DNA of 64,000 nt from a virus: the IMG/VR virus record IMGVR_UViG_3300024262_000018, positions 49,960 to 113,959 of that record; one strand, 5' to 3'. A program made the position numbers and the translations under genes. The notes beneath the pieces are model-generated. The model was not told the origin of the DNA. It did not search any database and saw only the letters and a program-made list of their open reading frames with translations. This document shows positions 42,998 through 55,633 of this stretch, one piece after another (position 1 is the first letter of the stretch; each line of letters starts with the position of its first letter).

Positions 42998-43026
42998 TTG
43001 CTTTTTTACGTTCTCCTGCCTATAAT
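42998..43026 (+). promoter_or_regulatory. sigma70 promoter of tRNA array 1
   Basis: TTGCTT-N17-TATAAT. Confidence 0.8.
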
Positions 43027-43055: not shown

Positions 43056-43163
43056 ATGAATAACATTCAAAACAACTCAACTCAGAACAACGGGACTCTC
43101 GTCCTGTCGTCCCTTTATTGTTTATCTGGGCACTCTTTGTCCCTCGGCTATTATAGTCTATAA
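43056..43163 (+). CDS. putative attenuator leader peptide (Leu/Ser/Tyr/Cys/Gly sensor), 35 aa
   Basis: MNNIQNNSTQNNGTLVLSSLYCLSGHSLSLGYYSL*, between promoter and terminator. Confidence 0.7.
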   Translation: MNNIQNNSTQNNGTLVLSSLYCLSGHSLSLGYYSL

Positions 43164-43220
43164 GACTAGCTTGAGCCGGACACAAAACTCTCTTTTTATT
43201 CCCGGCTCGGGTCATTTTTT
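43164..43220 (+). terminator. putative attenuator terminator 1
   Basis: CTTGAGCCGG (43170-79) pairs with CCGGCTCGGG (43202-11), then T6; competing pairing with CTCGGCTA 43143-50. Confidence 0.6.
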
Positions 43221-43242
43221 GAAAAATTAATATGAGTTCTAT

Positions 43243-43326
43243 GGGTTGGTTGAGCAACTGGACGCTCTGGCGACTGTAACTCGTCCGTCCGAAAGGACAT
43301 TGCAGGTTCGAGTCCTGTCCAACCCG
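43243..43326 (+). tRNA. tRNA-Tyr(GTA)
   Basis: Cloverleaf, loop CTGTAAC, long variable arm. Confidence 0.9.
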
Positions 43327-43333
43327 GTGATAT

Positions 43334-43423
43334 ACCCTTGTAGCAGAATTGGCTTATGCGATTGACTTAAAATCAATTGAGGAGTATAAACTCCTCGTGT
43401 GGGTTCGACCCCCGCCAAGGGTA
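43334..43423 (+). tRNA. tRNA-Leu(TAA)
   Basis: ATTGA-CTTAAAA-TCAAT, long variable arm. Confidence 0.9.
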
Positions 43424-43429
43424 TTACTT

Positions 43430-43517
43430 GCTCCTGTGGCGTAATTAGCAGCCGCGCTAGGTTTAGACCCTAGTGGGAATATCAAATCCCGTGCTGGTGC
43501 AACTCCAGTCAGGAGTA
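43430..43517 (+). tRNA. tRNA-Leu(TAG)
   Basis: CTAGG-TTTAGAC-CCTAG. Confidence 0.9.
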
Positions 43518-43524
43518 CTTATCT

Positions 43525-43610
43525 GCCCCTTTGGTGTAATTGGAAGCCACGATAGTTTCAAGAACTATTGCACTTTAACGTGCGTCTCGGTTCGAGTCCG
43601 GGAAGGGGCA
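43525..43610 (+). tRNA. tRNA-Leu(CAA)
   Basis: ATAGT-TTCAAGA-ACTAT. Confidence 0.9.
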
Positions 43611-43654
43611 TTTATATATTTTTCGCGCAAAATTATTTTCAAAGTGTAAAACAG

Positions 43655-43739
43655 GGAAAGTAAAGTTCATAGGTTGAGCCACCGTCTGCTAAATGGTTGG
43701 AGTGAGAAATCGCTTGTGTTTCGATTACACTGCTTTCCG
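43655..43739 (+). tRNA. tRNA-Ser(GCT)
   Basis: ACCGT-CTGCTAA-ATGGT, long variable arm, G73. Confidence 0.8.
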
Positions 43740-43755
43740 TTAATTAGGAAATAAA

Positions 43756-44337
43756 ATGAAAAAAGAACATTTTGATTATGGTTCCTATAAGAAATATATA
43801 AACCGCCAAACTAAGCTAGCCTCTCAAACAGTTTTCAAAACTCTTAGAGATAAGAAGTTTATCGAAGAAAGAGTTAAAGATCTCCTATCTCTTTATCCTA
43901 ATTATAAAAATGTTTTATGCTTAGGATCTAGACATCCAGTAGAAGTGGAAGCGTTTTTAACTGCTGGTTGTTCTGCTATAGGTATTGATCTTTTTGAAAC
44001 GCTACCACATATTATAAAATGCGATATGGCGAAGATGTATGAAAACTCAATACTTCGAAAAAGAAAACCATTTGATATCATATATATGAGCCATTCTTTA
44101 GAACATTGTTTAAATATCGAAGGGCTATTACAAGGAATTCAATGGAGTAATGCGACAGTCTTATATATAAGAGTTCCTATAAAGAATAAACCTGAAAAAT
44201 GGGATTGCACATTATTAGAATTTATGCTTCCAGATGGTAATCCCAATACGATAGAAGAATTATTTACCGGATGGACTCTTAAGGAGTTTACTCCGCTAAG
44301 TAATGAAAAGATTTTTATTTTAGAAAAGAGGAAATAA
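43756..44337 (+). CDS. class I SAM-dependent methyltransferase
   Basis: VLCLGSR...GIDL...FDIIYMSHSLEH. Confidence 0.75.
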   Translation: MKKEHFDYGSYKKYINRQTKLASQTVFKTLRDKKFIEERVKDLLSLYPNYKNVLCLGSRHPVEVEAFLTAGCSAIGIDLFETLPHIIKCDMAKMYENSILRKRKPFDIIYMSHSLEHCLNIEGLLQGIQWSNATVLYIRVPIKNKPEKWDCTLLEFMLPDGNPNTIEELFTGWTLKEFTPLSNEKIFILEKRK

Positions 44338-44338
44338 A

Positions 44339-44650
44339 ATGTCAGCATATTTTGTAGATTTAGATGGAACATTGTTTGAGTTTGGCACAGATATCTTCTT
44401 GCCAGGGACTAAAGAGTTTTTAGAGTTTATTAAAGAAAACAATCATCAACTTATACTAACAACTAGAAGGGGCGATTGGAGTGGGGTTTTTTCAAAAGAA
44501 AGCACTTTAAAAGCCCTTAAAGATCATGGTATAGAATATCATAGTATTATTTTTGGAGTTGATAGTCCTAGAATTGTTGTGAATGACGACGGATGCTCAG
44601 CTATTAATGTTATAACTAATATTGGTATGGAGAAAAAAGATTATGAATGA
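44339..44650 (+). CDS. small HAD-family phosphatase
   Basis: FVDLDGTL, LTTRR, VNDD. Confidence 0.75.
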   Translation: MSAYFVDLDGTLFEFGTDIFLPGTKEFLEFIKENNHQLILTTRRGDWSGVFSKESTLKALKDHGIEYHSIIFGVDSPRIVVNDDGCSAINVITNIGMEKKDYE

Positions 44651-44858
44651 GATTAAAATTGAATTTAAATCAAAGAGATATGGAGATACATTAGATGTCG
44701 GATATGGATATTCCAATAGCGAGGTTTTTGAAGGAGAGTTAAAAGAAGTTATTCGCAGGCTAGTTGACATAGACAAAAAATGTTATAAATATAATAAAGT
44801 AAATGTTTCTGTTGACCTTGTGGACGGGTATATAGAATTTATTGGAATTAAAAATTAA
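44643..44858 (+). CDS. hypothetical protein
   Basis: Short ORF overlapping the previous stop. Confidence 0.5.
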   Translation: MNEIKIEFKSKRYGDTLDVGYGYSNSEVFEGELKEVIRRLVDIDKKCYKYNKVNVSVDLVDGYIEFIGIKN

Positions 44859-44866
44859 TAATAACT

Positions 44867-44952
44867 GGATGAACTGGACATCGGTGAGTCCACTTGTTTT
44901 GAAAACAAGCAGGCCCGAAAAGGTCTTGGGGGTTCGAATCCCTCTTCATCCG
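44867..44952 (+). tRNA. tRNA-Ser(TGA)
   Basis: CTTGT-TTTGAAA-ACAAG. Confidence 0.88.
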
Positions 44953-44956
44953 GTAT

Positions 44957-45043
44957 GGAAGAACTGGGTATTTAGCGAACCCACTCGTCTCGAAAACGAG
45001 CAAGCCTGAAAGGGTTTTGAAAGTGCGAATCTTTCTTCTTCCG
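44957..45043 (+). tRNA. tRNA-Ser(CGA)
   Basis: CTCGT-CTCGAAA-ACGAG. Confidence 0.88.
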
Positions 45044-45128
45044 TTTAATTAATAAAATATAAAAATATTGAGTTGTGGCGTTTAAAAAGTTATAAAGAGG
45101 TATAAAACTTTGATGTAGGAGAAAAACT

Positions 45129-46286
45129 ATGACACCGCTTTTTGATCAATTAGAACCACGATTACTGTTGGATGGCACTTTTCCCGGCGACCTCAACCTT
45201 GATGGTTATGTCAATATGGAAGATCGTACTGAGGTTCATTCTGCTGCGGACTACATCGCGTGGAAGCGTAATATCGGCAAGACCGAGACAATCTCTCTGC
45301 TGGAAACGGTTCCCGGTGAGATACTTGTACAGGGGACGAATCATGCCGATACGATTTTTATAACGAACATTGGTGGTCGTGTTCAGGTTAATGGACAAAA
45401 CGCGGCAGGGGACGGAACCGTTGTTATCCTCGGCGGGAGTGGTGACGATATCATCTCGGTAGTCGGTCGTGATGCGATTGTAGATGCGGGTTCGGGTCGG
45501 GACATCGTTTGGTGTACTGACCCAGATACGGTTACAGATGCCGAAATCGTGCATGTATGCCCGAATTGGCTTCTTGACGGCACACCACTTCCTGAGATTG
45601 CTGGAGTAGAGTCAGGACAGAGTACTGATCTTTCGCATATACCGCTGTTTCCGCATGCTCCAGTGTACACTGATGTACAGCAAGGCATGTTGAATACTGG
45701 TTGGTTATTAGCGGCCTGTTCCTCTATTACGAAACAGCATCCCACGTGGTTAAGAGACAACCTTGTCGCATTCGGCGACAGTACCTACGGTGTAGCTTTT
45801 GCAGACGAGATTGTCCGGGTTGATGCCTCGTTCTGGATTTACCAGTCTGCTGTGGTTGAGGATAAAGGTCCACTGTGGCCCGTTGTTGTTGAAAAAGCCT
45901 ATGCGAGTAGTTTGGTTGGGGGGTATGATGCTTTAGAAAATTGTAAACCAGAAGATGCTATCGAGAAATTACTCGGCTGTAATTCCAGTCTTGTTGCGGG
46001 CGATTTCTTTGATTCAGCAGTAACTGCTTTGAAAGCAAAAAAAACTGTCGTGGTTCAGTTTGCCGAACTGCCGCTGAATGGCATTATTATGCCATTTCAG
46101 ACGTACGCCGTTCTTGCGGCATGGACTGGATATGATCCTGGAGAACAGTGGGTAACGCTCTATGATCCATTTAACTGTGATTATTCACCGAACTATGACG
46201 GCAAGTCGGCTGACGGTTTATATACATTACCTGCGAGTATCTTGGACACGTGCTGGTACATGGTATTAGAGTTGAGTGGCTCTTAG
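45129..46286 (+). CDS. LEPR-xLL / dockerin-like / calpain(C2)-like protein, probably catalytically inactive
   Basis: FDQLEPRLLL, GDLNLDGYVNMED, DVQQGMLNTGWLLAA, LWPVVVEKAYA; visibly GC-richer than flanks. Confidence 0.7.
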   Translation: MTPLFDQLEPRLLLDGTFPGDLNLDGYVNMEDRTEVHSAADYIAWKRNIGKTETISLLETVPGEILVQGTNHADTIFITNIGGRVQVNGQNAAGDGTVVILGGSGDDIISVVGRDAIVDAGSGRDIVWCTDPDTVTDAEIVHVCPNWLLDGTPLPEIAGVESGQSTDLSHIPLFPHAPVYTDVQQGMLNTGWLLAACSSITKQHPTWLRDNLVAFGDSTYGVAFADEIVRVDASFWIYQSAVVEDKGPLWPVVVEKAYASSLVGGYDALENCKPEDAIEKLLGCNSSLVAGDFFDSAVTALKAKKTVVVQFAELPLNGIIMPFQTYAVLAAWTGYDPGEQWVTLYDPFNCDYSPNYDGKSADGLYTLPASILDTCWYMVLELSGS

Positions 46287-46293
46287 AAAAATT

Positions 46294-46383
46294 GGAGGGT
46301 AGCAGATATGGTATCTAACTAGTTTAGAAGACTGGGCTAGCCTAATGTAAGTTGGGTTAATTGTTCGATTCAATTACTCTCCG
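46294..46383 (+). tRNA. tRNA-Ser(AGA)
   Basis: GGAGGGT/ACTCTCC acceptor, CTAGT-TTAGAAG-ACTGG, long variable arm, G73. Confidence 0.75.
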
Positions 46384-46438
46384 TACGCAAAGTGGTTTTT
46401 TTTCGCGATAATAAAAAAAACAACAACAAGGAATAAAA

Positions 46439-46714
46439 ATGACAGAATATAAAAATTATGATGATTGGTATGACAATGGACCTGGCAGCGAAAACTTCAC
46501 AAGAAAAATTGTCCAAAGTTCGAAAGTGTATCAAGAGGAAGAATACGAAAAAAAACGCGAAGAAGTAGTAAAAATTGAACGAAGAGATAAAAGGCAAAAA
46601 GCAGAAATAAAAAGATTGCGTAAAGAAAATAAAGAATTAAAAGTCGCATTAAAAAGCATGGTAGACAAACTAAATAGTGTGAAGCGCTATGTTAGTGTAT
46701 ATGATTGGAATTAG
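46439..46714 (+). CDS. hypothetical coiled-coil protein
   Basis: AAGGA RBS, 91 aa. Confidence 0.6.
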   Translation: MTEYKNYDDWYDNGPGSENFTRKIVQSSKVYQEEEYEKKREEVVKIERRDKRQKAEIKRLRKENKELKVALKSMVDKLNSVKRYVSVYDWN

Positions 46715-46717
46715 CAT

Positions 46718-46788
46718 GACCGATTGGCCGAGAGGCGAGGCGGCGTTCTGCAAAAACGCATACGTGGATTCGAATTCCACATCGGTCT
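46718..46788 (+). tRNA. tRNA-Cys(GCA)
   Basis: GCGTT-CTGCAAA-AACGC, U73. Confidence 0.9.
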
Positions 46789-46799
46789 TTTTTAAACAA

Positions 46800-46874
46800 G
46801 CACCATTAGTGTTTAACGGATCAGCATCTTTGATTTCCAATCAAAAGGTTCCAGTTCGAATCTGGAATGGTGTA
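46800..46874 (+). tRNA. tRNA-Gly(TCC)
   Basis: TTTGA-TTTCCAA-TCAAA. Confidence 0.88.
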
Positions 46875-46986: not shown

Positions 46987-47808
46987 ATGCTAAGAGTTTT
47001 GGTAACAAGTGGCGGAACAAAAGTTAAATTAGATGATGTCCGGTCAATAACAAACATGTCAAAAGGGACATTCGGTGCTAAAATCGCAACTGAGTTCCTT
47101 AAAGCAGATCCGGAAATATATTTAACGTTTTTATCTGCCGAGGGAAGCAAAAACCCTTTCGATATAAATTGTTCAAGATATTTATCTCTTTGGCAAAATA
47201 TAAAAGAAGCTAATAGAGTTCGTAAATTCTATAATTCGCGTCGAACTCGTTATAGCGAAATTTCTTATAAGACTTATAATGATTATGCGGTAGAACTTAA
47301 AGGTCTTTTGGAAGGGAAAAGGTTTGATATTGTTGTCTTGGCTGCGGCAGTTAGTGACTATATTGTAGCTAATACAGTCGAGGGTAAAGTTCGCTCGACA
47401 GAAACTTTAAATATTGAACTAAAACCAGCCGAAAAGTTAATTTCTCAAGTCAAAAGTAAGATGGCTTTTCAAGATAACATTCTTGTTGGATTTAAATTAT
47501 TAGTCGGTAGCACCCATGAACAACTTATTCAAGCCGCTCAAAAAAGCATCTATGATAATGGATGCGATTTGGTTATCGCTAACGATTTAAGGGATATTCG
47601 TAACAGCAATCACAAACTAAGCATTTTAGAGCATCGTTCTGAACTTTATAATGGAGTGTGGAGTGATTCTATAGATCAATATAGCCATATTGACGCATTT
47701 GGAAAACCCCATGAAAATAATTATTTAGCATCTGTTGTAGCTAAAAGAGCGATTCATAAATGGAATAAAACTTTTGGACCGAAAGCGAGGCGAAAATATG
47801 GAGAATAA
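46987..47808 (+). CDS. coaB: phosphopantothenate-cysteine ligase (CoaB)
   Basis: VLVTSGGT...DDVRSITNMSKGTFG...LAAAVSDY...VGFKL...IAN. Confidence 0.88.
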   Translation: MLRVLVTSGGTKVKLDDVRSITNMSKGTFGAKIATEFLKADPEIYLTFLSAEGSKNPFDINCSRYLSLWQNIKEANRVRKFYNSRRTRYSEISYKTYNDYAVELKGLLEGKRFDIVVLAAAVSDYIVANTVEGKVRSTETLNIELKPAEKLISQVKSKMAFQDNILVGFKLLVGSTHEQLIQAAQKSIYDNGCDLVIANDLRDIRNSNHKLSILEHRSELYNGVWSDSIDQYSHIDAFGKPHENNYLASVVAKRAIHKWNKTFGPKARRKYGE

Positions 47809-48967
47809 AAAGAAAGTTCTTTGGGGTTTAACAGGATCAGTTGCAAGTGTTTTAACTTCTAAAATAACAAATGAAGCTCCTTGCAGATATGATGTTAAAT
47901 TCGTGGCTACTAAATGTGCCAGATCATTTTTCCATCTATCTCATGTAGACCCTCATAGTAAATTATATTTAGAAAAAGATGAATGGGAATGGACAGAAGA
48001 TAAAAATCAAACAACACAGATGAAAGAACAGGTAACAAAAAGATATTATACCTCAATACGAACAATTTGGCAAAAAGAGGATCCAGTTCTGCATATCGAG
48101 TTAAGAGACTGGGCAGATGTTTTGGTAATTGCTCCCTTAACTGCAAATACTTTAGCAAAAATGGCTAATGGCATCTGTGACAATCTATTAACTTCCATCG
48201 TAAGAGCGTGGCCTAGAGAAAAACCAATGGTAATTGCTCCTGCCATGAATACTGTTATGTGGGAAAGTCCATTTACAAAAGAACACATTAATAAACTTTC
48301 TAATATATATAATCTTAAAGTGGCTTGGCCAGTAGAAAAAGAATTAGCCTGTGGTGATCATGGCCTTGGGGCGATGGCTAATTTAGATACTATTTATGAG
48401 AAAATAGATAATGCCTTCCAATGGATTTCGCCAGTATCAGAATGTAATGGAATTCCTGTAGGTAAACATCCTGGGGCATTTGGCGTACAACGAAAGTATT
48501 CTAAACACTGCGGAGTTGATTTATATGTTAAGGATAATGTTACGGTTCACGCTATGGAACCAGGAAAGATTGTAGCAATTGAACCATTTACTGGTGCTCA
48601 AGATAATTCTCCTTGGTGGAACAATACAGAGTGCGTTTTAATACGTGGCCACTCTGGAAGAACTATTTGCTATGGAGAAATTACTACATCTAATCTCAAT
48701 CCGCCCTTGCGAGTAGGCCAATTTGTAACAAGAGGTCAATATATAGGGAATGTAATACCCGTTTTAAAAGAAGGCAAAGAACGTCCAGATATTCCTGGAC
48801 ATTCAAGATGCATGCTCCATATTGAACTTTATAAAAATAAAACAAATGTTCCTTCAGATGGTTGGGATAAAACAAAAGATATCGTTGGTTTAACTGATCC
48901 TACGCCATTCTTGCTGGACTTTTCCAATGGAAATTTTAAAAAATTAGAGATGACGGAAAATAAATAA
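47798..48967 (+). CDS. coaC: phosphopantothenoylcysteine decarboxylase (CoaC) fused to an M23 peptidase domain
   Basis: GLTGSVA, HIELRDWAD.LVIAPLTANTLAKMANGICDNLL, PAMNTVMW, LACGD.G.GAM; then HCGVD...HIE. Confidence 0.85.
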   Translation: MENKKKVLWGLTGSVASVLTSKITNEAPCRYDVKFVATKCARSFFHLSHVDPHSKLYLEKDEWEWTEDKNQTTQMKEQVTKRYYTSIRTIWQKEDPVLHIELRDWADVLVIAPLTANTLAKMANGICDNLLTSIVRAWPREKPMVIAPAMNTVMWESPFTKEHINKLSNIYNLKVAWPVEKELACGDHGLGAMANLDTIYEKIDNAFQWISPVSECNGIPVGKHPGAFGVQRKYSKHCGVDLYVKDNVTVHAMEPGKIVAIEPFTGAQDNSPWWNNTECVLIRGHSGRTICYGEITTSNLNPPLRVGQFVTRGQYIGNVIPVLKEGKERPDIPGHSRCMLHIELYKNKTNVPSDGWDKTKDIVGLTDPTPFLLDFSNGNFKKLEMTENK

Positions 48968-48981
48968 AATTAATTTTTCAC

Positions 48982-49010
48982 TTGCATTTCGCCCGCAAAA
49001 CGTCTATAAT
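48982..49010 (+). promoter_or_regulatory. sigma70 promoter of tRNA array 2
   Basis: TTGCAT-N17-TATAAT. Confidence 0.8.
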
Positions 49011-49047
49011 ACTGTGGTGCCGAAAATTCGGACCAAATAGGTGATTT

Positions 49048-49122
49048 ATGAAACGAATGTTTAAACATATTAATGTAGAGAATACATGGGTCTTTAAGAC
49101 CCGTTTAAGCGTTCGTGCGTAA
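49048..49122 (+). CDS. putative attenuator leader peptide (11-amino-acid sensor), 24 aa
   Basis: AGGTGA RBS; MKRMFKHINVENTWVFKTRLSVRA*. Confidence 0.75.
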   Translation: MKRMFKHINVENTWVFKTRLSVRA

Positions 49123-49142
49123 AGCCTTTCCTTCTTAAAAAA

Positions 49143-49175
49143 GCTCATCGCACAAAAATGCGATGGGCTTTTTTT
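49143..49175 (+). terminator. putative attenuator terminator 2
   Basis: GCTCATCGCA-CAAAAA-TGCGATGGGC-T7; competing GTGCG (49115-19) pairs with CGCAC (49149-53). Confidence 0.85.
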
Positions 49176-49199
49176 ATTGATAATAAGAAAGAATATAAA

Positions 49200-49358
49200 A
49201 TGAGTAAAAATAAAATAAATAATTTAATTAAAGAAATAGAAGGTACATTGAATAGTTGCTCTATTGTTGATATCGAATATCATTTTATCGAAGTAAAAGA
49301 TGAAATGCTTGAAAAGCTTCGAGAATTAAGAGCAGAATTAGGAATTTGGGATAAGTAA
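49200..49358 (+). CDS. small hypothetical protein
   Basis: ATG 49200, downstream of the terminator. Confidence 0.45.
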   Translation: MSKNKINNLIKEIEGTLNSCSIVDIEYHFIEVKDEMLEKLRELRAELGIWDK

Positions 49359-49365
49359 ATAATAT

Positions 49366-49440
49366 GGTGTCGTGAGTGTGACGGTTTAGCATTTTTGATT
49401 GTGAGTCAGAAGGAACCAGTTCGACTCTGGTACGATACCC
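49366..49440 (+). tRNA. tRNA-His(GTG)
   Basis: 8-bp acceptor including G-1, loop TTGTGAG. Confidence 0.88.
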
Positions 49441-49537
49441 GTTAAAAGAAAATGATATATTTTCTAGCATACAATTGATATATAAATAGAGCGAAGAAAA
49501 CGTTTTAAGGGTGGAAGGTGTTGATCCGCCCTTATAC

Positions 49538-49608
49538 ACGCTCTTGGTGTAACAGCAGCACAGGAATCTCCAAAATTTCAAGCGAAAGTGCAAATCTTTC
49601 AGGGCGTG
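49538..49608 (+). tRNA. tRNA-Trp(CCA)
   Basis: GGAAT-CTCCAAA-ATTTC. Confidence 0.85.
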
Positions 49609-49615
49609 TTAATAC

Positions 49616-49688
49616 GGGTACTGAGCAAGTCTAGTGATTGCGCAAGTCTGAAGAACTTGAGAAATTGGAGCATAACCAATAGTACCCA
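49616..49688 (+). tRNA. tRNA-Phe(GAA)
   Basis: CAAGT-CTGAAGA-ACTTG; atypical T-loop AGCATAA. Confidence 0.8.
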
Positions 49689-49705
49689 TTTAAAATTGAT
49701 TTAAC

Positions 49706-49819
49706 GTGGCGGTTGCATAATGGCAATGCAGCAGGAGACTTGAAAATGGTCTGTGGACATTATTTATACTGCGAGGGGTTAGACACCATCAAATATAGGT
49801 TCGATTCCTGTCCGTCATA
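49706..49819 (+). ncRNA. tRNA-like RNA with expanded central region
   Basis: GTGGCGG/CCGTCAT acceptor, GCAT/ATGC D-arm, ATAGG-TTCGATT-CCTGT T-arm, about 60-nt insert with no clean anticodon arm. Confidence 0.55.
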
Positions 49820-49820
49820 T

Positions 49821-50342
49821 TTATAGAGGTAGAACAGAGTATGCGAAAGGAGACATCCTTCTTTGAGTCCCTGTAATCACTTCTATCTGTTTAGGACTGA
49901 TTACTCGAACAACAGTAGCAGGATTTTCAGATTCAGGGTATTTGATTAAAGACACTTTATCTCCTGGCTTTAAATTAGATAAATCATGTATCTGTAAAGT
50001 AGAAGTTTCTATAATTCTTGGTTTTCCTACAGTATCTCCAATGGTTATTAAAGAGAAACGATTGTTTTGTTGATATGGTCCCATATATGCACCAACAAAA
50101 GTTTGATTTGTTTTGGGATCTATAAAAATAACACCATCTCCAGCCTTAAAACTTTGTTGAGGTACATTTTGTTGAGGTACATTTTGTTGAGGTACATTTT
50201 GTTGAGGTGTGCTATTTTTTTGTTGTAGAATTTCTTGAACGTTAACCATACGTTGAGGAGCATCCTGTTGAGGCGCATTTTTTCTTTGTTGTAAAACTTC
50301 TTGAATATTAACCATGCGTTGAGAAAATTTATACCAGTTCAT
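49821..50342 (-). CDS. Gln-rich repeat protein (NWY N-terminus) antisense within the tRNA array
   Basis: MNWYKFSQ, duplicated QRMVNxQExLQQ, 15-nt PQQNV tandem repeats. Confidence 0.7.
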   Translation of the reverse strand: MNWYKFSQRMVNIQEVLQQRKNAPQQDAPQRMVNVQEILQQKNSTPQQNVPQQNVPQQNVPQQSFKAGDGVIFIDPKTNQTFVGAYMGPYQQNNRFSLITIGDTVGKPRIIETSTLQIHDLSNLKPGDKVSLIKYPESENPATVVRVISPKQIEVITGTQRRMSPFAYSVLPL

Positions 50343-50399
50343 AAAATATAATACAAAAAATAAAAGATTAAACCTTTTTAAATAAAAGCAAAAGTATTT

Positions 50400-50437
50400 G
50401 GGTCAGAAGCTCAATGGACGAGCGTTGAATTTCATAA
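50400..50437 (+). pseudogene. 5' half tRNA remnant upstream of an HNH gene
   Basis: GGGTCAG-AA-GCTCAATGGACGAGC-GTTGAATTTCATAA, no T-arm follows. Confidence 0.55.
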
Positions 50438-50454
50438 AGGTTTATAAGGTTTTA

Positions 50455-50482
50455 TAAAGTTTTATCGCAGCCCTGCCGATAA
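50455..50482 (+). promoter_or_regulatory. sigma28 (FliA)-type promoter
   Basis: TAAAGTTT-N12-GCCGATAA. Confidence 0.65.
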
Positions 50483-50518
50483 ATTAACAAGTCTTGTTAA
50501 TTACTGAAAGGGCTTAAA

Positions 50519-51271
50519 ATGAGCAAAGCCTCTGAAGCTGTAAAACTTTGGCGAAAAAGAACCAAAGAAAGAATAGTAGAATCTATGGGCGGTAAATGCG
50601 TCTGTTGCGGATATGATTATTGCAATGATGCTTTAGATTTACATCATTTAGACCCAACAGAAAAAGAATTTTGTTTTGGATCTATAAAAGCTAATTGCAA
50701 AAGCTGGGCAAAAATTGTTGTTGAACTAAGAAAATGTATTTTATTATGTAGCAGATGTCATAGAGAAATACATTCAAATATGCGACAGATTCCTAAAAAT
50801 CCTAAACGATTTGATGAAAATTATATTAATTACACTAATAACAATAGAAAACATAAAAAAAGTTATTGTCCTATATGTGGAAAAGAAAAAGAAGAATTTA
50901 ATAAAACATGTTCTCATTCCTGTGCCGCCAAATTAAATAAAATGACCGACTCTGATTGGGAAAAAATTGACATATATGATCTTAGAGTTAATAAAAATTT
51001 TAATTGGTGTCAAATAGCAGATATGGTTGGGATATCAAGCTCAGCAGCACAAAAGCGTTTTAAAAAAATATATGGAAAATGGGTATATGGAAAAAGAGTA
51101 TATATCCCTCGCCTTAAACAACGAAAAGTAGAAAGACCTACAGAAGAACAAATTCTAGAAGATTTAAAAAAAATGTCTTGTTGTGCTGTTGGTCGAAAAT
51201 ATAATGTTTCTGATAACTGTATAAGAAAATGGTTAAAGTATTATAAAAAAGAAAAGAACACTAAAAAATAA
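50519..51271 (+). CDS. HNH homing endonuclease with C-terminal HTH
   Basis: GGKCVCCGY...LDLHHLDP...KCILLCSRCHREIH; VGRKYNVSDNCIRKW. Confidence 0.85.
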   Translation: MSKASEAVKLWRKRTKERIVESMGGKCVCCGYDYCNDALDLHHLDPTEKEFCFGSIKANCKSWAKIVVELRKCILLCSRCHREIHSNMRQIPKNPKRFDENYINYTNNNRKHKKSYCPICGKEKEEFNKTCSHSCAAKLNKMTDSDWEKIDIYDLRVNKNFNWCQIADMVGISSSAAQKRFKKIYGKWVYGKRVYIPRLKQRKVERPTEEQILEDLKKMSCCAVGRKYNVSDNCIRKWLKYYKKEKNTKK

Positions 51272-51278
51272 ATTACAT

Positions 51279-51353
51279 TCCCCTGTAGCTCAATTGGTAG
51301 CATGCGTTCGGCTGTTAACCGAAAGGTTGCTGGTTCGACTCCAGCCGGGGGAG
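51279..51353 (+). tRNA. tRNA-Asn(GTT)
   Basis: TTCGG-CTGTTAA-CCGAA. Confidence 0.92.
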
Positions 51354-51360
51354 TTTACAT

Positions 51361-51453
51361 TCCGGGATATGCTAACTGGGAAGCAACTTGACCGTTAATC
51401 AAGTGTAATCGAGTAGAGAATACCGTATCCAGGTTCGAGTCCTGGTCCCGGAG
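51361..51453 (+). tRNA. tRNA-Asn(GTT), C33 and long variable region
   Basis: CTTGA-CCGTTAA-TCAAG plus 25-nt variable region. Confidence 0.8.
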
Positions 51454-51459
51454 TTTCAT

Positions 51460-51533
51460 CTTCCTATAGCTCAACGCGAGAGCATGCTCCATCGGGGAGC
51501 AATACGCAGGTCCAACTCCTGCAAGGAAGACCA
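51460..51533 (+). tRNA. atypical tRNA, possibly Arg(TCG), with encoded CCA
   Basis: TGCTC-CATCGGG-GAGCA arm (A33), T-loop TCCAACT, ends ACCA. Confidence 0.55.
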
Positions 51534-51536
51534 TTT

Positions 51537-51609
51537 GGGTCTATAACATAGTGGAATAATGTATCTGGCTCTTACCCAGAAAACCAAGGTTCGATTCCTT
51601 GTGGACCTA
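51537..51609 (+). tRNA. tRNA-Lys(CTT)
   Basis: TCTGG-CTCTTAC-CCAGA. Confidence 0.88.
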
Positions 51610-51623
51610 TTGTATAATATTAC

Positions 51624-51695
51624 GGGCTTTAAACTTAGATAGCGAAGTAACACTCTTTTAAAGTGTAAAGGACAGTGCAAGTCTGTCAAGGCCCA
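51624..51695 (+). tRNA. tRNA-Lys(TTT)
   Basis: ACACT-CTTTTAA-AGTGT. Confidence 0.82.
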
Positions 51696-51697
51696 TT

Positions 51698-51913
51698 ATG
51701 AATAATTGTAAATATTTTCCTTGTCACGAAAAAATGGATGATTGTAGATTTTGCTACTGTCCGCTTTATCCCTGTTTAAAAATTTATAGGGGCGGAAAAA
51801 TGATTATAAATCAAAGTGATAAAGAAATTTGGGATTGTAGCGGTTGCAACAAACTTCATAATAAAAAAGTCGCAGAAAGATTAGATAGATTTATTAATAG
51901 AAAAATAAAATGA
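51698..51913 (+). CDS. cysteine-rich small domain protein
   Basis: CKYFPCH...CRFCYCPLYPC...WDCSGC..LH. Confidence 0.8.
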   Translation: MNNCKYFPCHEKMDDCRFCYCPLYPCLKIYRGGKMIINQSDKEIWDCSGCNKLHNKKVAERLDRFINRKIK

Positions 51914-52173
51914 AAAAATGTAAAACAATGACACAATGCAAATTAGAACTCAATGGCCTTATAGATGTGGCCTGGATTCCTACTAAATTCGCCAAAAAAG
52001 ATAATTACTTAGAAATTCAAGGAGTCAATGGTTGGAAAGTATTAGAAGTCTGGACAACTGAAGATACGGATGAAGTCAGAGATCAAGAGCAAGATTACAA
52101 AAAGACTCGTATAACATCCGATATGCCTCATGGAACCTTATCAGATACAGTTAAGAAGGCAATGGAAAAATGA
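51910..52173 (+). CDS. hypothetical protein
   Basis: ORF coupled to both neighbours. Confidence 0.6.
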   Translation: MKKCKTMTQCKLELNGLIDVAWIPTKFAKKDNYLEIQGVNGWKVLEVWTTEDTDEVRDQEQDYKKTRITSDMPHGTLSDTVKKAMEK

Positions 52174-52646
52174 TTAAAGTAATAACAGACGATCTATTAA
52201 CAACTGATATCCAATACATTGCCCATCAATGTAATTGTGTCAGTAAAAAATCTGCTCATCTTTCTAGAGATATATTTGAAGAATTTTCTTATGCAGATGT
52301 TTATACTGGGAGAACTGTTCCCGATACTTTGGGGACGGTAAAAGTTCGCGGCAATGGGAAAGAGGAACGATATGTAATAAATATGTTTGGGCAATATTAT
52401 CCAGGAACAGTAAGATATCCCAAAAGCCCTAAAGATAATTATCAAGCGAGAGAAAGAGCCTTTAAGTCTTGCCTAGAAGACATCGAGAAGATCCCAGGAT
52501 CGACTGAGATCGCTTTTCCTTATAAAATAGGTTGTGGAGCCGCTGGAGGAGATTGGGTAATTTACAAAAAAATGTTAGAAGATTTCGCAGAAAGAGTTTA
52601 TCCTTTTATCGATGTATATATTATTAAATTAAAAACGTCCTTATAG
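52170..52646 (+). CDS. macrodomain protein (OARD1/DarG-like)
   Basis: IAHQCNC...INMFGQ...IAFPYKIGCGAAGGDW. Confidence 0.85.
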   Translation: MIKVITDDLLTTDIQYIAHQCNCVSKKSAHLSRDIFEEFSYADVYTGRTVPDTLGTVKVRGNGKEERYVINMFGQYYPGTVRYPKSPKDNYQARERAFKSCLEDIEKIPGSTEIAFPYKIGCGAAGGDWVIYKKMLEDFAERVYPFIDVYIIKLKTSL

Positions 52647-52710
52647 TGAAAATGGATCATCACGACTTTTTACGGAAAAGTAATTCCGGGTTCGAGTCCT
52701 GGTAGGGATA
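52637..52710 (+). tRNA. tRNA-Arg(ACG)
   Basis: ACTTT-TTACGGA-AAAGT. Confidence 0.88.
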
Positions 52711-52712
52711 TT

Positions 52713-53426
52713 ATGAAAGTAGAATTAAACATAACATTGGCTTGCAATCTCTCTTGTCACGGTTGTGATAGGATGTGTAATATCTATAAAAATCGCACAG
52801 AACACATGTCTTTAGAACAAATTGACAAATTTATAAAGCACTCAAAAGGAAGGACAATTGAGAGAATAAAAATACTTGGAGGAGAACCATTATTACATCC
52901 TCAATTTGTTGAGATATATAATAAATTAATGTTTGCTTTTATAGGAAACAGACGAACTAGATTAATAAAAGTAGAAAGTAATCATTTACTCCCTATCCCG
53001 GATATAAAACAAACCTTTTCAATGCTGGTTGCGGGCGTTGACCCTATAGAAAAAAAACATTTACCTTATTGGTGGCATCCTAAAGATTTGGGATATGATA
53101 TCCCCGCACAGTATAAGTGTCGTCATCTAAATAGATGTGGAACATCATTAGATAAATACGGATACTTACCATGTTCCGCCGCAATTATGCTTGTTAGACT
53201 ATTCGGTTTGACAGATTTATATAGAGATTATTTACCTTATAAACCTTGGGGACTAGAGAAATTGTGCCAACATTGCATATTTGGTATGTCGAAGAGTTGG
53301 AGAGCGAAACATTCTAAATATATAAAAGAATTTCCTGAAGAATACAAAATCCCAACGAAAAGATTTAAAGAGGCGATGGAAAAGTTTGATCATAACGAGT
53401 TTTACAAGACGCAAAAAGAATTTTAA
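52713..53426 (+). CDS. radical SAM protein
   Basis: CNLSCHGC, LGGEPLLHP, C-terminal Cys cluster. Confidence 0.85.
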   Translation: MKVELNITLACNLSCHGCDRMCNIYKNRTEHMSLEQIDKFIKHSKGRTIERIKILGGEPLLHPQFVEIYNKLMFAFIGNRRTRLIKVESNHLLPIPDIKQTFSMLVAGVDPIEKKHLPYWWHPKDLGYDIPAQYKCRHLNRCGTSLDKYGYLPCSAAIMLVRLFGLTDLYRDYLPYKPWGLEKLCQHCIFGMSKSWRAKHSKYIKEFPEEYKIPTKRFKEAMEKFDHNEFYKTQKEF

Positions 53427-53428
53427 AC

Positions 53429-53501
53429 GGGCGATTAGGAAAGTAGCTAATCCGATTGTTTTACACGCAATAAATCACTGGTGCAAATCCAGTATCGCCT
53501 A
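53429..53501 (+). tRNA. tRNA-Val(TAC)
   Basis: ATTGT-TTTACAC-GCAAT. Confidence 0.85.
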
Positions 53502-53522
53502 TTATATCAAGGGAGATGGAAT

Positions 53523-54029
53523 ATGAAAATAGAGATGTTCAAAGGTAAATTGTTAGAAGACGATATTCTTATTATGTCAAAAGATGAATTATTGGAAAAA
53601 CAAAGTTTTGAAGAAAGTCCTATTGGTCGAATGTGCTGGATGCAGGTTTTTACTAATTTATCTGGATATCCTTGTATTCAGCCAGTAAAGGCAGGAAGCA
53701 AATTCGCCCGATGGAGTCCTAATCTTGAAGTAATTGAAGAATCTAAAAACGAAGAAAGCATTCCTATAATAATCTTTGAAGATGATGGATATATTGTTAA
53801 TTTAAATGCATTAGATGACTCTCCATTTTTAACTGACGAAAAAGGAACATGTTGTGGATCGGGCTCAAGTTTGGCTTTCAGTGATGATGGTGAAACTTGG
53901 TATATCTTTGGAGACGATCCTTTTTCAATCGATATAGATGAAGATGAACAATACTATAGCAAAAGAGTTATGGACACTGTTAAAAAATTAAAGGAGCAAG
54001 GAGTTCTGTTTGTTTTAAATTATCTATAA
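53523..54029 (+). CDS. hypothetical acidic protein
   Basis: ATG 53523 after GGAG. Confidence 0.6.
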   Translation: MKIEMFKGKLLEDDILIMSKDELLEKQSFEESPIGRMCWMQVFTNLSGYPCIQPVKAGSKFARWSPNLEVIEESKNEESIPIIIFEDDGYIVNLNALDDSPFLTDEKGTCCGSGSSLAFSDDGETWYIFGDDPFSIDIDEDEQYYSKRVMDTVKKLKEQGVLFVLNYL

Positions 54030-54037
54030 TTTTACAA

Positions 54038-54112
54038 ACCCCTATCGTCTAATCGGTTTAGGTACACTGGATTCTCAGTCCAGAAATCGGAGTTCGAATC
54101 TCCGTAGGGGTA
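54038..54112 (+). tRNA. tRNA-Glu(CTC)
   Basis: CTGGA-TTCTCAG-TCCAG. Confidence 0.9.
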
Positions 54113-54118
54113 TTAAAC

Positions 54119-54193
54119 GCCGTCATCGTCTAAATGGTTTAGGATACTTGATTTTCAGTCAAGCAGATCAGGGTTCGAATCCCTGTGGCGGTA
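54119..54193 (+). tRNA. tRNA-Glu(TTC)
   Basis: CTTGA-TTTTCAG-TCAAG. Confidence 0.9.
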
Positions 54194-54212
54194 TTAAATA
54201 AGGAGATCATAT

Positions 54213-54506
54213 ATGGATGTTGAAAAATATATAAAACATATTAAAGATTGTCATGAAAGAACAGTTATTGCTGGCAAAATGGTTTGTCATGATGGGGATT
54301 GTGGAATATATGGATGTAATGTTCCTGTTTGCACTTGTGGATTATTACACAAAATAAAACCTTTTGCCGCCTCATATCCAGAAGAAGCAATGAAGTTATA
54401 TCCTAAATATGAGGAAGATTTAGAAAAACAAAGTGTTTGGGAAACTTTAGATCAATACATTGACGAGAAAGATATAAAAAAGTTGTTAGAATTTTTAACA
54501 ATTTGA
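54213..54506 (+). CDS. hypothetical Cys/His-rich protein
   Basis: AAGGAG RBS; CHDGDC...CTCGLLH. Confidence 0.65.
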   Translation: MDVEKYIKHIKDCHERTVIAGKMVCHDGDCGIYGCNVPVCTCGLLHKIKPFAASYPEEAMKLYPKYEEDLEKQSVWETLDQYIDEKDIKKLLEFLTI

Positions 54507-54511
54507 ATTAC

Positions 54512-54584
54512 GCGATTATAGCTTAATTAGAAAAGCATCCGACCGATAATCGGAAGAGTTCTGGTGCGAGTCCAGATAATCGCA
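54512..54584 (+). tRNA. tRNA-Ile(GAT)
   Basis: TCCGA-CCGATAA-TCGGA (C33). Confidence 0.88.
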
Positions 54585-54591
54585 TTTAATT

Positions 54592-54663
54592 GTTTCTATG
54601 GTGAAATGGATATCATATTTTTCTCCTAAAAAAAAGTTTCCGGTTCGAATCCGGATAGAGATA
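54592..54663 (+). tRNA. tRNA-Arg(CCT)
   Basis: TTTTT-CTCCTAA-AAAAA. Confidence 0.85.
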
Positions 54664-54670
54664 TTAAGTC

Positions 54671-54743
54671 GCTCTTATGGTGAAATGGACTATCATATTT
54701 TTCTTCTAAAAAAAAGTTTCCGGTTCGAATCCGGATAAGAGTA
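54671..54743 (+). tRNA. tRNA-Arg(TCT)
   Basis: TTTTT-CTTCTAA-AAAAA. Confidence 0.85.
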
Positions 54744-54750
54744 GTTTTTT

Positions 54751-54822
54751 GCTCCCTAAACATTGCCGGTGATGCCTTAGCCCGTAACTAAGTACAAGTC
54801 AGTTCGAGTCTGACAGGGAGCT
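54751..54822 (+). tRNA. tRNA-Thr(CGT)
   Basis: CTTAG-CCCGTAA-CTAAG (C33). Confidence 0.82.
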
Positions 54823-54827
54823 TCTAT

Positions 54828-54899
54828 GCCGATTAATCATAGAAAGCGATGAACCTGTCCGGTACACAGGATAGAGAGGTGCATGTCCTCTAGTCGGCT
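54828..54899 (+). tRNA. tRNA-Thr(GGT)
   Basis: CCTGT-CCGGTAC-ACAGG (C33). Confidence 0.82.
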
Positions 54900-54902
54900 T
54901 TA

Positions 54903-55238
54903 TGAACTACTCCAGGCTAAAGCCCCGGAGTTTCCTCACTCAACGAGTGAACTTACTCTAACACTATGAATACTTTTAAGTTTATCCATAATAGAAAGAA
55001 TAGAGGTTCTACTCTCCTGAGGCTTTAATTCCCTATATTCCGTAGGTACTCGTTTATCTTTTAATCCTTCTCTCAATATGTTTCTTGAAGCATTTACGTC
55101 TCTATCTTCTTCACAACCACAACTTGGACAAACATAAGTTCTTTTATCTTGAGACATTTTTTGTTTATTTCCACAGCTAAAGCATAACTGAGAAGAAGGA
55201 AAAAATCTATTTATTTCTATAGTAAGATGTGCCGCCAC
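54903..55238 (-). mobile_element. tnpB: IS200/IS605-family remnant: TnpB C-terminus plus right-end hairpin
   Basis: FFPSSQLCFSCG...YVCPSCG...DRDVNASRNI; end GAAACTCCGGGGCTTTAGCCTGGAGTAGTTCA on the minus strand. Confidence 0.85.
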
Positions 55239-55402
55239 AAATGCGGCTTGTGCTCATACTGAATCAAGAAATAGAGATTGGTGGATGGATAAATATTATA
55301 ATTTGAAAAAACAATTTGATAAAATTACACAAGAGTCTTTGGTCGTTAAAGCTTCTTGATTCAGAAAAGTACTAAATTGTTTTTGTTTGCGAAAATAAAA
55401 TT

Positions 55403-55474
55403 GCCCGCGTAGCTTAACTAGTAGAGTCCCTGTTTTGTACTCAGGAGGTACGGGTGCGAGTCCTGTCGCGGGCT
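55403..55474 (+). tRNA. tRNA-Thr(TGT)
   Basis: GCCCGCG/CGCGGGC acceptor, loop TTTGTAC. Confidence 0.85.
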
Positions 55475-55480
55475 GTATTT

Positions 55481-55553
55481 AGCGGTATCGTATAATGGTT
55501 TATTACATCTTTTTCATAAGGAGAAAATCAAGGTTCAATTCCTTGTACCGCTA
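55481..55553 (+). tRNA. tRNA-Met(CAT)
   Basis: TCTTT-TTCATAA-GGAGA. Confidence 0.85.
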
Positions 55554-55633
55554 TTCTTAAAGGAAAAACTTTAAAAAAATATAAAGAGTGAGTGCTAAAA
55601 TACTTACTCTTTTTCTATTTAGAGGAGATAACT

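What the first reader, a model, noticed from the sequence alone, without database searches (positions are those of the whole stretch)
49048..49175. Leader 2 contains all 11 amino acids of the downstream tRNA array within its first 19 codons
Seen: MKRMFKHINVENTWVFKTRLSVRA*. Residues 1-19 use only M, K, R, F, H, I, N, V, E, T, W, exactly the identities of the tRNAs at 49366-55553, including rare Trp and His; 21 of 24 residues match overall. It has a good RBS (AGGTGA), a hairpin ATGGGTC-TTTAA-GACCCGT inside the ORF, and a strong terminator (49143-49175) whose CGCAC can instead pair with GTGCG in the last two codons. A strong terminator between a consensus promoter and about 20 tRNA genes is most simply explained if it is conditional.
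Basis: partly seen in the sequence, partly recalled or inferred. Interest (0 to 1): 0.9.

Follow-up and report, generated by a model that had tools for sequence, protein, structure and literature searches.

The report
Leader-peptide attenuator gating phage tRNA genes
A 24-codon mini-gene in a fragment of a giant phage genome spells out the 11 amino acids whose tRNA genes lie behind the transcription stop that follows it, so the phage probably makes these tRNAs only when ribosomes run short of them, a control I found no published account of for tRNA genes.

Summary
The ORF at 49048-49122 has a good Shine-Dalgarno site. It lies between a promoter-like site (48982-49010) and a strong terminator (49143-49175). 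Its first 19 codons use only the amino acids of the tRNA block at 49367-55554. Two corrections: the block has 16 tRNA genes, not about 20, and the Phe assignment rests on an odd tRNA-like gene.

It is one of three such units in this 114-kb record. The three leaders divide the 20 amino acids exactly as the three tRNA blocks do: P/A/D/Q, Y/L/S/C/G and the other 11. Among 1561 small ORFs, each leader ranks first for its own set.

Distant relatives (terminase 40-58% identical, several complete 460-550 kb phages) carry the same ORF-terminator-tRNA units. Their leader composition follows their own, different blocks. Phage phiCbK shows it too.

Folding fits trp-type attenuation. The strand that can pair with the terminator's 5' arm is free while a ribosome sits on codons 1-19 and covered from codon 20, which is exactly where the composition changes. 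That pairing is weak, and there are no expression data.

This scan has noted the same idea on other phage DNA. I found nothing in print. Best reading: a ribosome-mediated attenuator sensing tRNA supply (about 0.65).

The parts
48982..49010 (+). Promoter-like site of unit 2: TTGCAT, 17-nt spacer, TATAAT
   Evidence: It is one of 16 TTGNNN-N16-18-TATAAT matches in the 114-kb genome (about the number expected by chance). Three of the 16 lie within 70 nt upstream of the three leader ORFs, all with 17-nt spacers. Sequence.
49020..49031 (+). 5' stem-loop of the leader transcript
   Evidence: MFE and centroid fold.
49039..49044 (+). Shine-Dalgarno site AGGTGA, 3 nt before the ATG
   Evidence: Sequence.
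49048..49122 (+). Leader ORF 2 (24 codons + TAA). Codons 1-19 (49048-49104) are the proposed sensor window.
49053..49066 (+). Region 1 (codons 2-6), which pairs with region 2
   Evidence: 14-bp helix in the MFE. The ORF RNA folds with z = -6.5, and 0 of 200 shuffles fold as well.
49103..49125 (+). Region 2. 49103-49116 pairs with region 1. 49114-49125 (GTGCG, the stop codon, AGC) can pair instead with the terminator's 5' arm, acting as an antiterminator.
   Evidence: (duplex -10.5 kcal/mol; 2.8% of 1000 shuffles as good).
49137..49176 (+). Intrinsic terminator (regions 3 and 4): A run, 10-bp stem, 6-nt loop, T run. It looks bidirectional.
   Evidence: (-19.6 kcal/mol).
49200..49358 (+). 52-codon ORF between the terminator and the first tRNA. 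No family match.
49367..55554 (+). tRNA block 2: His, Trp, Phe-like, Asn x2, Lys x2, Arg, Val, Glu x2, Ile, Arg x2, Thr, Met, interspersed with ORFs (HNH endonuclease, radical SAM). It is closed by a terminator-like site at 55583-55612.
42998..43026 (+). Promoter-like site of sister unit 1: TTGCTT-17-TATAAT
43056..43163 (+). Leader ORF 1 (35 codons). 18 of its last 19 residues are L, S, Y, C or G.
   Evidence: p 7.7e-10; rank 1 of 1561.
43170..43224 (+). Terminator-like hairpin of unit 1 (10-11 bp stem, long loop, T run), ending 18 nt before tRNA-Tyr
   Evidence: (-18.1 kcal/mol).
43242..46874 (+). tRNA block 1: Tyr, Leu x3, Ser x3, Cys, Gly

Best explanation
Unit 2 is a ribosome-mediated (leader-peptide) transcription attenuator placed in front of a tRNA operon.

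Transcription starts at the promoter at 48982-49010. A ribosome loads on the leader ORF while RNA polymerase moves on. What happens next depends on how fast the ribosome reads.

- Fast reading: all the needed aminoacyl-tRNAs are plentiful, and the ribosome runs to the last codons and the stop. There it covers the strand GTGCG-TAA-AGC. The terminator hairpin forms and the transcript ends at 49175.
- Slow reading: decoding stalls at any of codons 1-19, which together sample the 11 amino acids of the downstream tRNAs. The stalled ribosome breaks or blocks the strong helix between codons 2-6 and codons 19-23. The GTGCG strand is left free to pair with the loop-proximal part of the terminator's 5' arm. 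Polymerase then reads through into the tRNA genes.
- No translation at all: the region 1:2 helix forms and termination follows.

The new tRNAs relieve the stall, so each block would regulate itself by negative feedback. The same logic applies to the two sister units in this genome and to the units in related phages.

Shown: the anatomy, the statistics, the alternative pairings, and the way leaders track tRNA blocks across genomes. Inferred: translation of the ORF, stalling, the switch itself, and its physiological purpose.
For: Composition
- All 19 of the first 19 residues fall in the block's set, and all 11 types are present.
- The all-11-type window is unique in the six-frame translation of the genome.
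- By standard wobble, 17 of the 19 codons have a cognate anticodon in the block (sequence).

Sister units
- The three leaders rank first of 1561 small ORFs for their own sets, with p of 1.2e-7, 7.7e-10 and 8.2e-6. Off-diagonal sets are not enriched.
- Together the three sets divide all 20 amino acids.
- Units 0 and 1 leave no room for a separate promoter with a usable start site before the first tRNA.

Structure
- The leader RNA folds with z = -9.0.
- A 14-bp 1:2 helix lies inside the ORF.
- The terminator is -19.6 kcal/mol.
- The best upstream partner of the terminator arm is the strand over the stop codon.
- That arm is sequestered with P = 0.69 for A-site codons 1-19, 0.40 at codon 20 and 0.28 afterwards.

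Relatives
- L091 has two units, with p of 1.4e-11 and 1.4e-8, each block-specific.
- L094 has a leader run matching Ile, Cys, Thr, Asn, Pro, His. Its 8-9 bp antiterminator over the last codons was matched by 0 of 1000 shuffles, and the model switch falls right after the matching run.
- L090 and L095 also have an ORF plus terminator plus tRNA block.
- With their own tRNA lists, 6 of 94 candidate ORFs reach p <= 1e-5. With mismatched lists, 0.75% do.
- In phiCbK the annotated terminators before tRNA blocks are preceded by block-matched ORFs (p 4e-6 and 2.7e-4).
Against: - The antiterminator of unit 2 is only 5+3 bp (-5.4 kcal/mol as a hairpin), and its shuffle test is modest (2.8%).
- The antiterminator of unit 1 is not better than chance (39% of shuffles).
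- Unit 0 has a different geometry. Its hairpin overlaps the last six codons and the stop, and its U tract is imperfect.
- Each sensed amino acid occurs only one to three times, fewer than in most classical leaders.
- GTC and ACC need four-way U34 reading. Three anticodons of the block (UUC, CCU, UCU) are not sampled.
- The Phe tRNA is doubtful.
- Promoter-like sites downstream could feed part of the block independently: 49309-49338 (9/12), 50319-50347 (10/12) and 51178-51205.
- Alone, the enrichment of unit 2 is only narrowly the best among random small ORFs (8.2e-6 against 8.8e-6).
- The host is unknown and there are no close relatives. Nothing is known about expression.
Confidence: 0.65

Rival explanations
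1. Translation of the matched leader controls something other than classical antiterminator switching. Candidates are direct occlusion of a hairpin by the ribosome (pyrBI-like, possibly with the opposite sign), transcript processing or stability, or release of the first tRNA. The ORF would still be a decoding sensor, but the GTGCG/CGCAC switch would not be the mechanism.
For: Unit 0 and the leaders in L083 and L084 have a strong hairpin whose 5' arm is the end of the ORF, with no good U tract. The antiterminators of units 1 and 2 are weak or not significant.
Against: Unit 2, L091, L094, L090 and L095 have canonical terminators just before the tRNAs. L094 has a highly significant antiterminator over the last codons. 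In unit 2 the model switch point coincides with the compositional boundary.
Confidence: 0.15
2. The promoter, ORF and terminator form a stand-alone small gene, either a structured small RNA or a mini-protein, with constitutive termination. The tRNAs are made from leaky read-through or from other promoters. The compositional match has no regulatory meaning.
For: The 160-nt transcript is very stable (z = -9.0), as small RNAs often are. Promoter-like sites exist downstream. L095 has a TTGACA-15-TAGAAT site between its terminator and tRNA-Val.
Against: This reading does not explain why three leaders divide the 20 amino acids exactly as the blocks do. It also does not explain why leaders in distant relatives follow their own blocks. 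The promoter-like sites that abut tRNAs would start transcription inside the mature tRNA. Unit 1 has only 18 nt between its terminator and tRNA-Tyr.
Confidence: 0.1
3. The terminator simply ends the upstream operon (tRNA block 1 plus the CoaB/CoaC genes) and is a fixed partial stop that sets tRNA dosage. The ORF is incidental.
For: The terminator is the first one downstream of the gene that ends at 48967. It looks bidirectional.
Against: A consensus-like promoter sits between that gene and the terminator, which makes little sense with a fixed strong stop. The ORF statistics and the relatives argue against an incidental ORF, as above.
Confidence: 0.07

Closest known systems
Leader-peptide transcription attenuators of amino-acid operons (trpL, hisL, leuL, pheL; multivalent thrL and ilvL of enterobacteria). 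Textbook knowledge.
   Same: Promoter, short translated ORF rich in the relevant codons, a 1:2 helix, a 2:3 antiterminator that overlaps the 5' arm of an intrinsic terminator, and a stop codon placed so that a terminating ribosome blocks the antiterminator. Several amino acids are sensed at once, as in thr and ilv.
   Different: The regulated genes are tRNA genes, not biosynthetic enzymes. Eleven amino acids are sampled, mostly once or twice, instead of runs of one to three kinds. The signal would be supply of the tRNAs themselves, so the product feeds back directly on its sensor. The setting is a phage. There is no sequence homology.
T-box riboswitches
   Same: They read tRNA status and switch between a terminator and an antiterminator upstream of translation-related genes.
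   Different: T-boxes bind uncharged tRNA directly and need no translation. No T-box or any other non-tRNA Rfam family reaches its threshold in the window. Here an ORF with a Shine-Dalgarno site is the presumed sensor.
The trn tRNA-array operon of Anabaena sp. PCC 7120 (PMC8421152; PMC10272220)
   Same: An accessory array of tRNA genes is kept silent and induced when translation is impaired.
   Different: Control there is at the promoter, through direct repeats bound by the repressor TrcR. The words attenuator, leader and terminator do not occur in PMC8421152. It is a cellular megaplasmid, not a phage.
Units noted earlier by this scan in other phages (unpublished AI notes), including phiCbK-like Caulobacter phages
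   Same: The same architecture and the same reading. I re-derived it for phiCbK.
   Different: The DNA is unrelated. The present genome stands out because its three units divide all 20 amino acids and because unit 2 holds a near-pangram of its 11 amino acids.

Membership tests
Ribosome-mediated leader-peptide attenuators | A short ORF with a ribosome-binding site lies between the promoter and the regulated genes | tested here: met
   AGGTGA, ATG at 49048, 24 codons, promoter-like site at 48982-49010.
Ribosome-mediated leader-peptide attenuators | Leader codons are enriched for the amino acids that the operon serves | tested here: met
   19 of 19 residues with all 11 types present. Joint probability about 4.6e-7. 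The window is unique in the genome.
Ribosome-mediated leader-peptide attenuators | An intrinsic terminator lies between the leader ORF and the regulated genes | tested here: met
   Stem and T run at 49143-49175, -19.6 kcal/mol.
Ribosome-mediated leader-peptide attenuators | A mutually exclusive antiterminator exists whose availability depends on ribosome position | tested here: inconclusive
   A 5+3 bp pairing over the stop codon, with 2.8% of shuffles as good. The model switch falls at codon 19/20. It is weak in energy (-5.4 kcal/mol).
Ribosome-mediated leader-peptide attenuators | An anti-antiterminator (1:2) helix involves the sensor codons | tested here: met
   A 14-bp helix joins codons 2-6 to codons 19-23, with z = -6.5.
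Ribosome-mediated leader-peptide attenuators | Read-through rises when decoding of the sensor codons is slow | not testable with these tools
   The phage is uncultured.
Ribosome-mediated leader-peptide attenuators | The regulated genes are amino-acid biosynthesis or transport genes | tested here: not met
   The downstream genes are 16 tRNA genes with a few accessory ORFs. I therefore file it as a variant, not a member of the classical set.
T-box riboswitch | Specifier loop and conserved T-box sequence, detectable with the Rfam model | tested here: not met
   Only tRNA hits reach their gathering score in the window.

The most novel reading that the evidence does not exclude
Giant phages run a modular tRNA homeostat resolved down to single amino acids. 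Every tRNA block is gated by its own translated test gene, which samples just the amino acids of that block. The phage then tops up only those tRNAs that the infected cell lacks, whether from codon-usage mismatch, host shut-off or tRNA-cleaving defence nucleases, and the new tRNAs switch their own synthesis off again. The layout recurs in unrelated phages, including culturable phiCbK.
Probability: 0.5. Interest if true: 0.9.

Novelty: new variant of a known kind. Interest (0 to 1): 0.85.

Why it matters
Why phages carry tRNA genes, and how they use them, is still debated. The explanations offered include codon-usage compensation, host tRNA degradation and escape from anticodon nucleases. If each tRNA block sits behind a sensor of decoding speed, phage tRNAs would be made on demand rather than constitutively.

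It would also extend leader-peptide attenuation to a loop in which the sensed molecule is itself the product.

The leaders would state which tRNA genes form one regulatory unit, which would help annotate giant phage genomes.

The units are compact, portable parts for building switches that respond to the supply of chosen tRNAs. The presence of similar units in phiCbK makes the idea directly testable.

Tried and rejected
Searches for close relatives
- Megablast of 48000-52000 against the phage collection found no match.
- IMG/VR scans with the flanking 397-aa protein and with the terminase alone found none.
- The 385-aa protein inside block 1 has no homologue among 5.8 billion proteins.
- The one relative found with the 730-aa protein (L002) has no tRNA genes.
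- Eighty terminase-neighbour loci held almost no tRNAs, so I had to locate the arrays elsewhere on those records.

Tools that gave nothing
- Expression: no RNA holder is listed.

Tests that were negative or unclear
- No Rfam family other than tRNA appears in the window.
- ARAGORN in intron mode gives an implausible Asn(AUU) for the Phe-like gene. Similarity of its arms to relatives' tRNAs does not settle its identity.
- The antiterminator of unit 1 is no better than shuffles.
- For unit 0, a downstream C:D hairpin is too weak to be a terminator (-3.3 kcal/mol).
- An equilibrium model that masks only the ribosome footprint gave a blurred profile for unit 2. The sharper picture comes from also forbidding pairs that span the ribosome, which is an assumption.

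Literature
- Six full-text searches found no paper on leader peptides or attenuators before phage tRNA genes.

Full report
WHAT IS THERE

The window is the right-hand 64 kb of a 113,959-bp virus record. It is AT-rich, at about 34% G+C.

At 49048-49122 on the + strand lies a 24-codon ORF ending in TAA. It is preceded by AGGTGA 3 nt before the ATG and by TTGCAT-17-TATAAT at 48982-49010. It is followed by a canonical terminator: a 10-bp stem at 49143-52 and 49159-68, a 6-nt loop, seven T, and an A run before the stem, at -19.6 kcal/mol.

Next come a 52-codon ORF with no family match (49200-49358) and the tRNA block at 49367-55554.

ARAGORN finds 14 tRNAs in the block: His, Trp, Asn x2, Lys(CUU), Arg(ACG), Val, Glu x2, Ile, Arg x2, Thr, Met. 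Rfam adds two more:
- a Lys(UUU) at 51624-51695;
- a 114-nt tRNA-like gene at 49706-49819.

The acceptor, D and T arms of that 114-nt gene align to the tRNA model, but its 58-nt middle does not. The middle folds into a hairpin with GAA/AAA in the loop, next to an extra arm. It is the only candidate for Phe in the genome, so the eleventh identity is tentative.

The block therefore has 16 genes, not about 20. A terminator-like site at 55583-55612 closes it.

IS IT MORE THAN CHANCE?

The 11 amino acids make up 54% of the phage's proteins.
- Eighteen residues after Met all falling in the set has P = 1.5e-5.
- Requiring all ten other types as well brings it to about 4.6e-7 per ORF.
- Residues 3-14 (RMFKHINVENTW) hold all 11 types in 12 positions. 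This is the only uninterrupted window of that kind in the six-frame translation of the whole genome.
- Taken alone, the plain enrichment score is only narrowly the best of 1561 small ORFs.

So the strength of the case lies in the full coverage of types, the position of the ORF and, above all, the context.

THE CONTEXT: THREE UNITS THAT DIVIDE THE 20 AMINO ACIDS

The genome carries 30 ARAGORN tRNAs plus three seen only by Rfam. Leaving aside a CUA suppressor, they fall into three blocks covering P/A/D/Q, then Y/L/S/C/G, then the 11 others.

Each block is preceded by a TTGC(T/A)T-17-TATAAT site and a short ORF.
- Leader 1 is at window 43056-43163. Of its last 19 residues, 18 are L, S, Y, C or G, and it uses all six Leu codons.
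- Leader 0 lies outside the window, at L001:7418-7483. Of 12 consecutive residues, 11 are D, A, P or Q.

Among 1561 small ORFs on both strands, each leader ranks first for its own set (p 1.2e-7, 7.7e-10, 8.2e-6). None is enriched for the other two sets.

Sixteen promoter-pattern matches in the genome is about what chance gives. Three of them sitting within 70 nt of the three leaders is not.

In units 0 and 1 the hairpin ends about 60 nt and 18 nt before the first tRNA. That leaves no room for a promoter with a usable start site, so those tRNAs must be reached by read-through.

RELATIVES

No close relative exists in the collections. The terminase does have 40-58% identical relatives in IMG/VR. 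Several lie on complete 460-550 kb genomes with 27-77 tRNA genes, so this record is probably a quarter of a giant phage genome.

I fetched their tRNA regions and scanned them in two ways:
- small intergenic ORFs within 350 nt upstream of a tRNA;
- ORFs ending just before an intrinsic terminator that itself lies just before a tRNA.

The same unit recurs, with different content each time.
- L091 has an ORF at 10606-10716 plus a terminator before Gly, Gly, Thr x3, Met, Gln, Thr, Ser, Ser. Of its residues 3-35, 27 of 33 are in that set (p 1.4e-11).
- L091 has a second ORF ending at 985 plus a terminator before Ala, Phe, Gln, Arg, Tyr, Lys, Asn, Trp. There, 24 of 27 residues are in the set (p 1.4e-8), and the match is specific to that block.
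- L094 has an ORF at 791-922 plus a terminator before Ile, Cys, Thr, Asn, Pro, His.
- L090 and L095 have an ORF, a strong terminator, then a tRNA block.

With their own downstream tRNA lists, 6 of 94 candidate ORFs reach p <= 1e-5. With lists taken from other loci, 0.75% do.

Prompted by earlier notes of this scan, I also checked the cultured Caulobacter phage phiCbK. Its depositors annotated rho-independent terminators directly before tRNA blocks. The ORFs in front of two of them match their blocks and not the others (p 4e-6 and 2.7e-4).

MECHANISM

The leader 2 transcript is far more structured than shuffles: z = -9.0 for 161 nt and z = -6.5 for the ORF alone.

A 14-bp helix joins codons 2-6 to codons 19-23 (regions 1 and 2) and encloses two small hairpins. 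In the full fold, the Shine-Dalgarno site and the AUG pair with the stretch around the stop codon.

The best upstream partner of the terminator's 5' arm is CGTGCGTAAAGCC at 49114-49126. The duplex energy is -10.5 kcal/mol, and 2.8% of 1000 dinucleotide shuffles do as well. It ties up the loop-proximal bases of the arm, where a hairpin would nucleate.

I modelled only the RNA in front of the ribosome's leading edge (A site + 13 nt), up to the terminator loop. The probability that the arm is sequestered is:
- 0.69 with the A site on any of codons 1-19;
- 0.40 at codon 20;
- 0.28 from codon 21 to the stop.

This switch point coincides with the point where the peptide stops being made of the block's amino acids.

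The same model gives a sharper switch in L094: 0.89 up to the last matching residue, then about 0. There the antiterminator is 8-9 bp, extends into an 18-bp helix, and is matched by 0 of 1000 shuffles. L091 and L095 behave similarly.

The layout is therefore that of the trp attenuator:
- with no translation, or with a ribosome at the stop, the terminator forms;
- with a ribosome held in the sensor window, the antiterminator forms and polymerase reads through.

All of this is inference from sequence and folding. Nothing shows that the ORF is translated or that termination varies.

WEAK POINTS
- The antiterminator of unit 2 is short (-5.4 kcal/mol as a hairpin).
- The antiterminator of unit 1 is not better than chance.
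- Unit 0, like the leaders of L083 and L084, has a strong hairpin whose 5' arm is the end of the ORF itself, followed by at best an imperfect U tract. In unit 0 the 3' arm can pair instead with a near-copy of the 5' arm 45 nt downstream (-17.9 kcal/mol). I cannot say how that version works.
- Each sensed amino acid occurs only one to three times.
- Two codons (GTC, ACC) need four-way reading by U34, and three anticodons of the block are not sampled.
- Promoter-like sites at 49309-49338, 50319-50347 and 51178-51205 could feed parts of the block independently.

WHAT IS KNOWN

Leader-peptide attenuation is textbook for amino-acid operons, including multivalent leaders (thr, ilv). T-boxes sense tRNA directly, but none is present here.

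The nearest published case of a conditionally expressed accessory tRNA array is the Anabaena trn operon. It is induced by translational stress through promoter repeats and the repressor TrcR, not through a leader (PMC8421152, PMC10272220).

Six full-text searches found no report of leader peptides or attenuators in front of phage or cellular tRNA genes. The library lacks most subscription journals, so this is absence of evidence only.

This scan has noted the same idea on other phage DNA before. Those are unchecked AI notes, and I count only what I re-derived here.

VERDICT

I file it as a new variant of a known kind: classical attenuation logic applied to tRNA genes, with a leader that lists the amino acids of its block. 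My confidence that the leader is functionally tied to its tRNA block is about 0.9. My confidence in the specific switch described is about 0.65.

Noticed in passing
L001:7286-7653 (genome 47285-47652, just left of the window): This is unit 0. A promoter-like site TTGCTT-17-TATAAT is followed after 5 nt by an Rfam-only tRNA with a CAU anticodon, an A1/A72 mismatch and an atypical T loop. Then come a 21-codon leader rich in D, A, P and Q, a -19.5 kcal/mol hairpin that spans the last six codons and the stop, an alternative -17.9 kcal/mol pairing with a downstream near-copy of the 5' arm, and tRNA-Pro. The geometry differs from units 1 and 2 and is unexplained.
   Followed up: partly
window 49706-49819: A 114-nt tRNA-like gene with normal acceptor, D and T arms. 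An inserted helix carries a hairpin with GAA/AAA in its loop plus a second small arm. It is the only Phe candidate in the genome. Other tRNAs here are also over-long: Gln of 85 nt at 1531-1711 and Asn of 95 nt at 51360-51454.
   Followed up: partly
window 20522-20593: A tRNA with anticodon CUA (amber suppressor), although long ORFs in the window are open under the standard code. A related phage (L093) also carries a CUA tRNA inside its array.
   Followed up: no
window 46987-48967: Two adjacent genes split the CoaBC functions. One is a DFP (CoaB-like) protein. The other is a Flavoprotein (CoaC-like) domain fused to an M23 peptidase domain. They lie between tRNA block 1 and leader 2.
   Followed up: no
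window 50519-51271; L001:7760-8542: HNH endonuclease genes are interspersed among the tRNA genes. Other ORFs inside the tRNA blocks are a radical SAM protein (52713-53426), a calpain-like protease (45129-46286, with no homologue in the 5.8-billion-protein search) and a trypsin-like protease just before leader 1 (42219-42989).
   Followed up: no
L095:1637-1665; L001:7548-7578: Promoter-like hexamers sit directly against the 5' end of a tRNA: TTGACA-15-TAGAAT 2 nt before tRNA-Val in a relative, and TTGTTT-18-TATATT 1-2 nt before tRNA-Pro here. A start site from these would fall inside the mature tRNA. Their meaning is unclear.
   Followed up: no
whole record and L003-L082: The terminase relatives lie on complete genomes of 460-550 kb with up to 77 tRNA genes, and many of those terminases carry inteins (lengths of 1000-1440 aa with split matches). 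The 114-kb record is therefore probably a fragment of a giant phage. Its likely source is a subsurface metagenome.
   Followed up: partly
L083:847-933 and L084 reverse strand (ORF 33 nt before tRNA-Cys): The leaders in the two nearest tRNA-bearing relatives loosely match their blocks (Cys, Lys, Arg, His, Pro, Trp, Ser, Leu; and Cys, Leu x5 then Ser x5). They end in a strong hairpin with no U tract, as unit 0 does. This may be a second structural class of the same device.
   Followed up: partly
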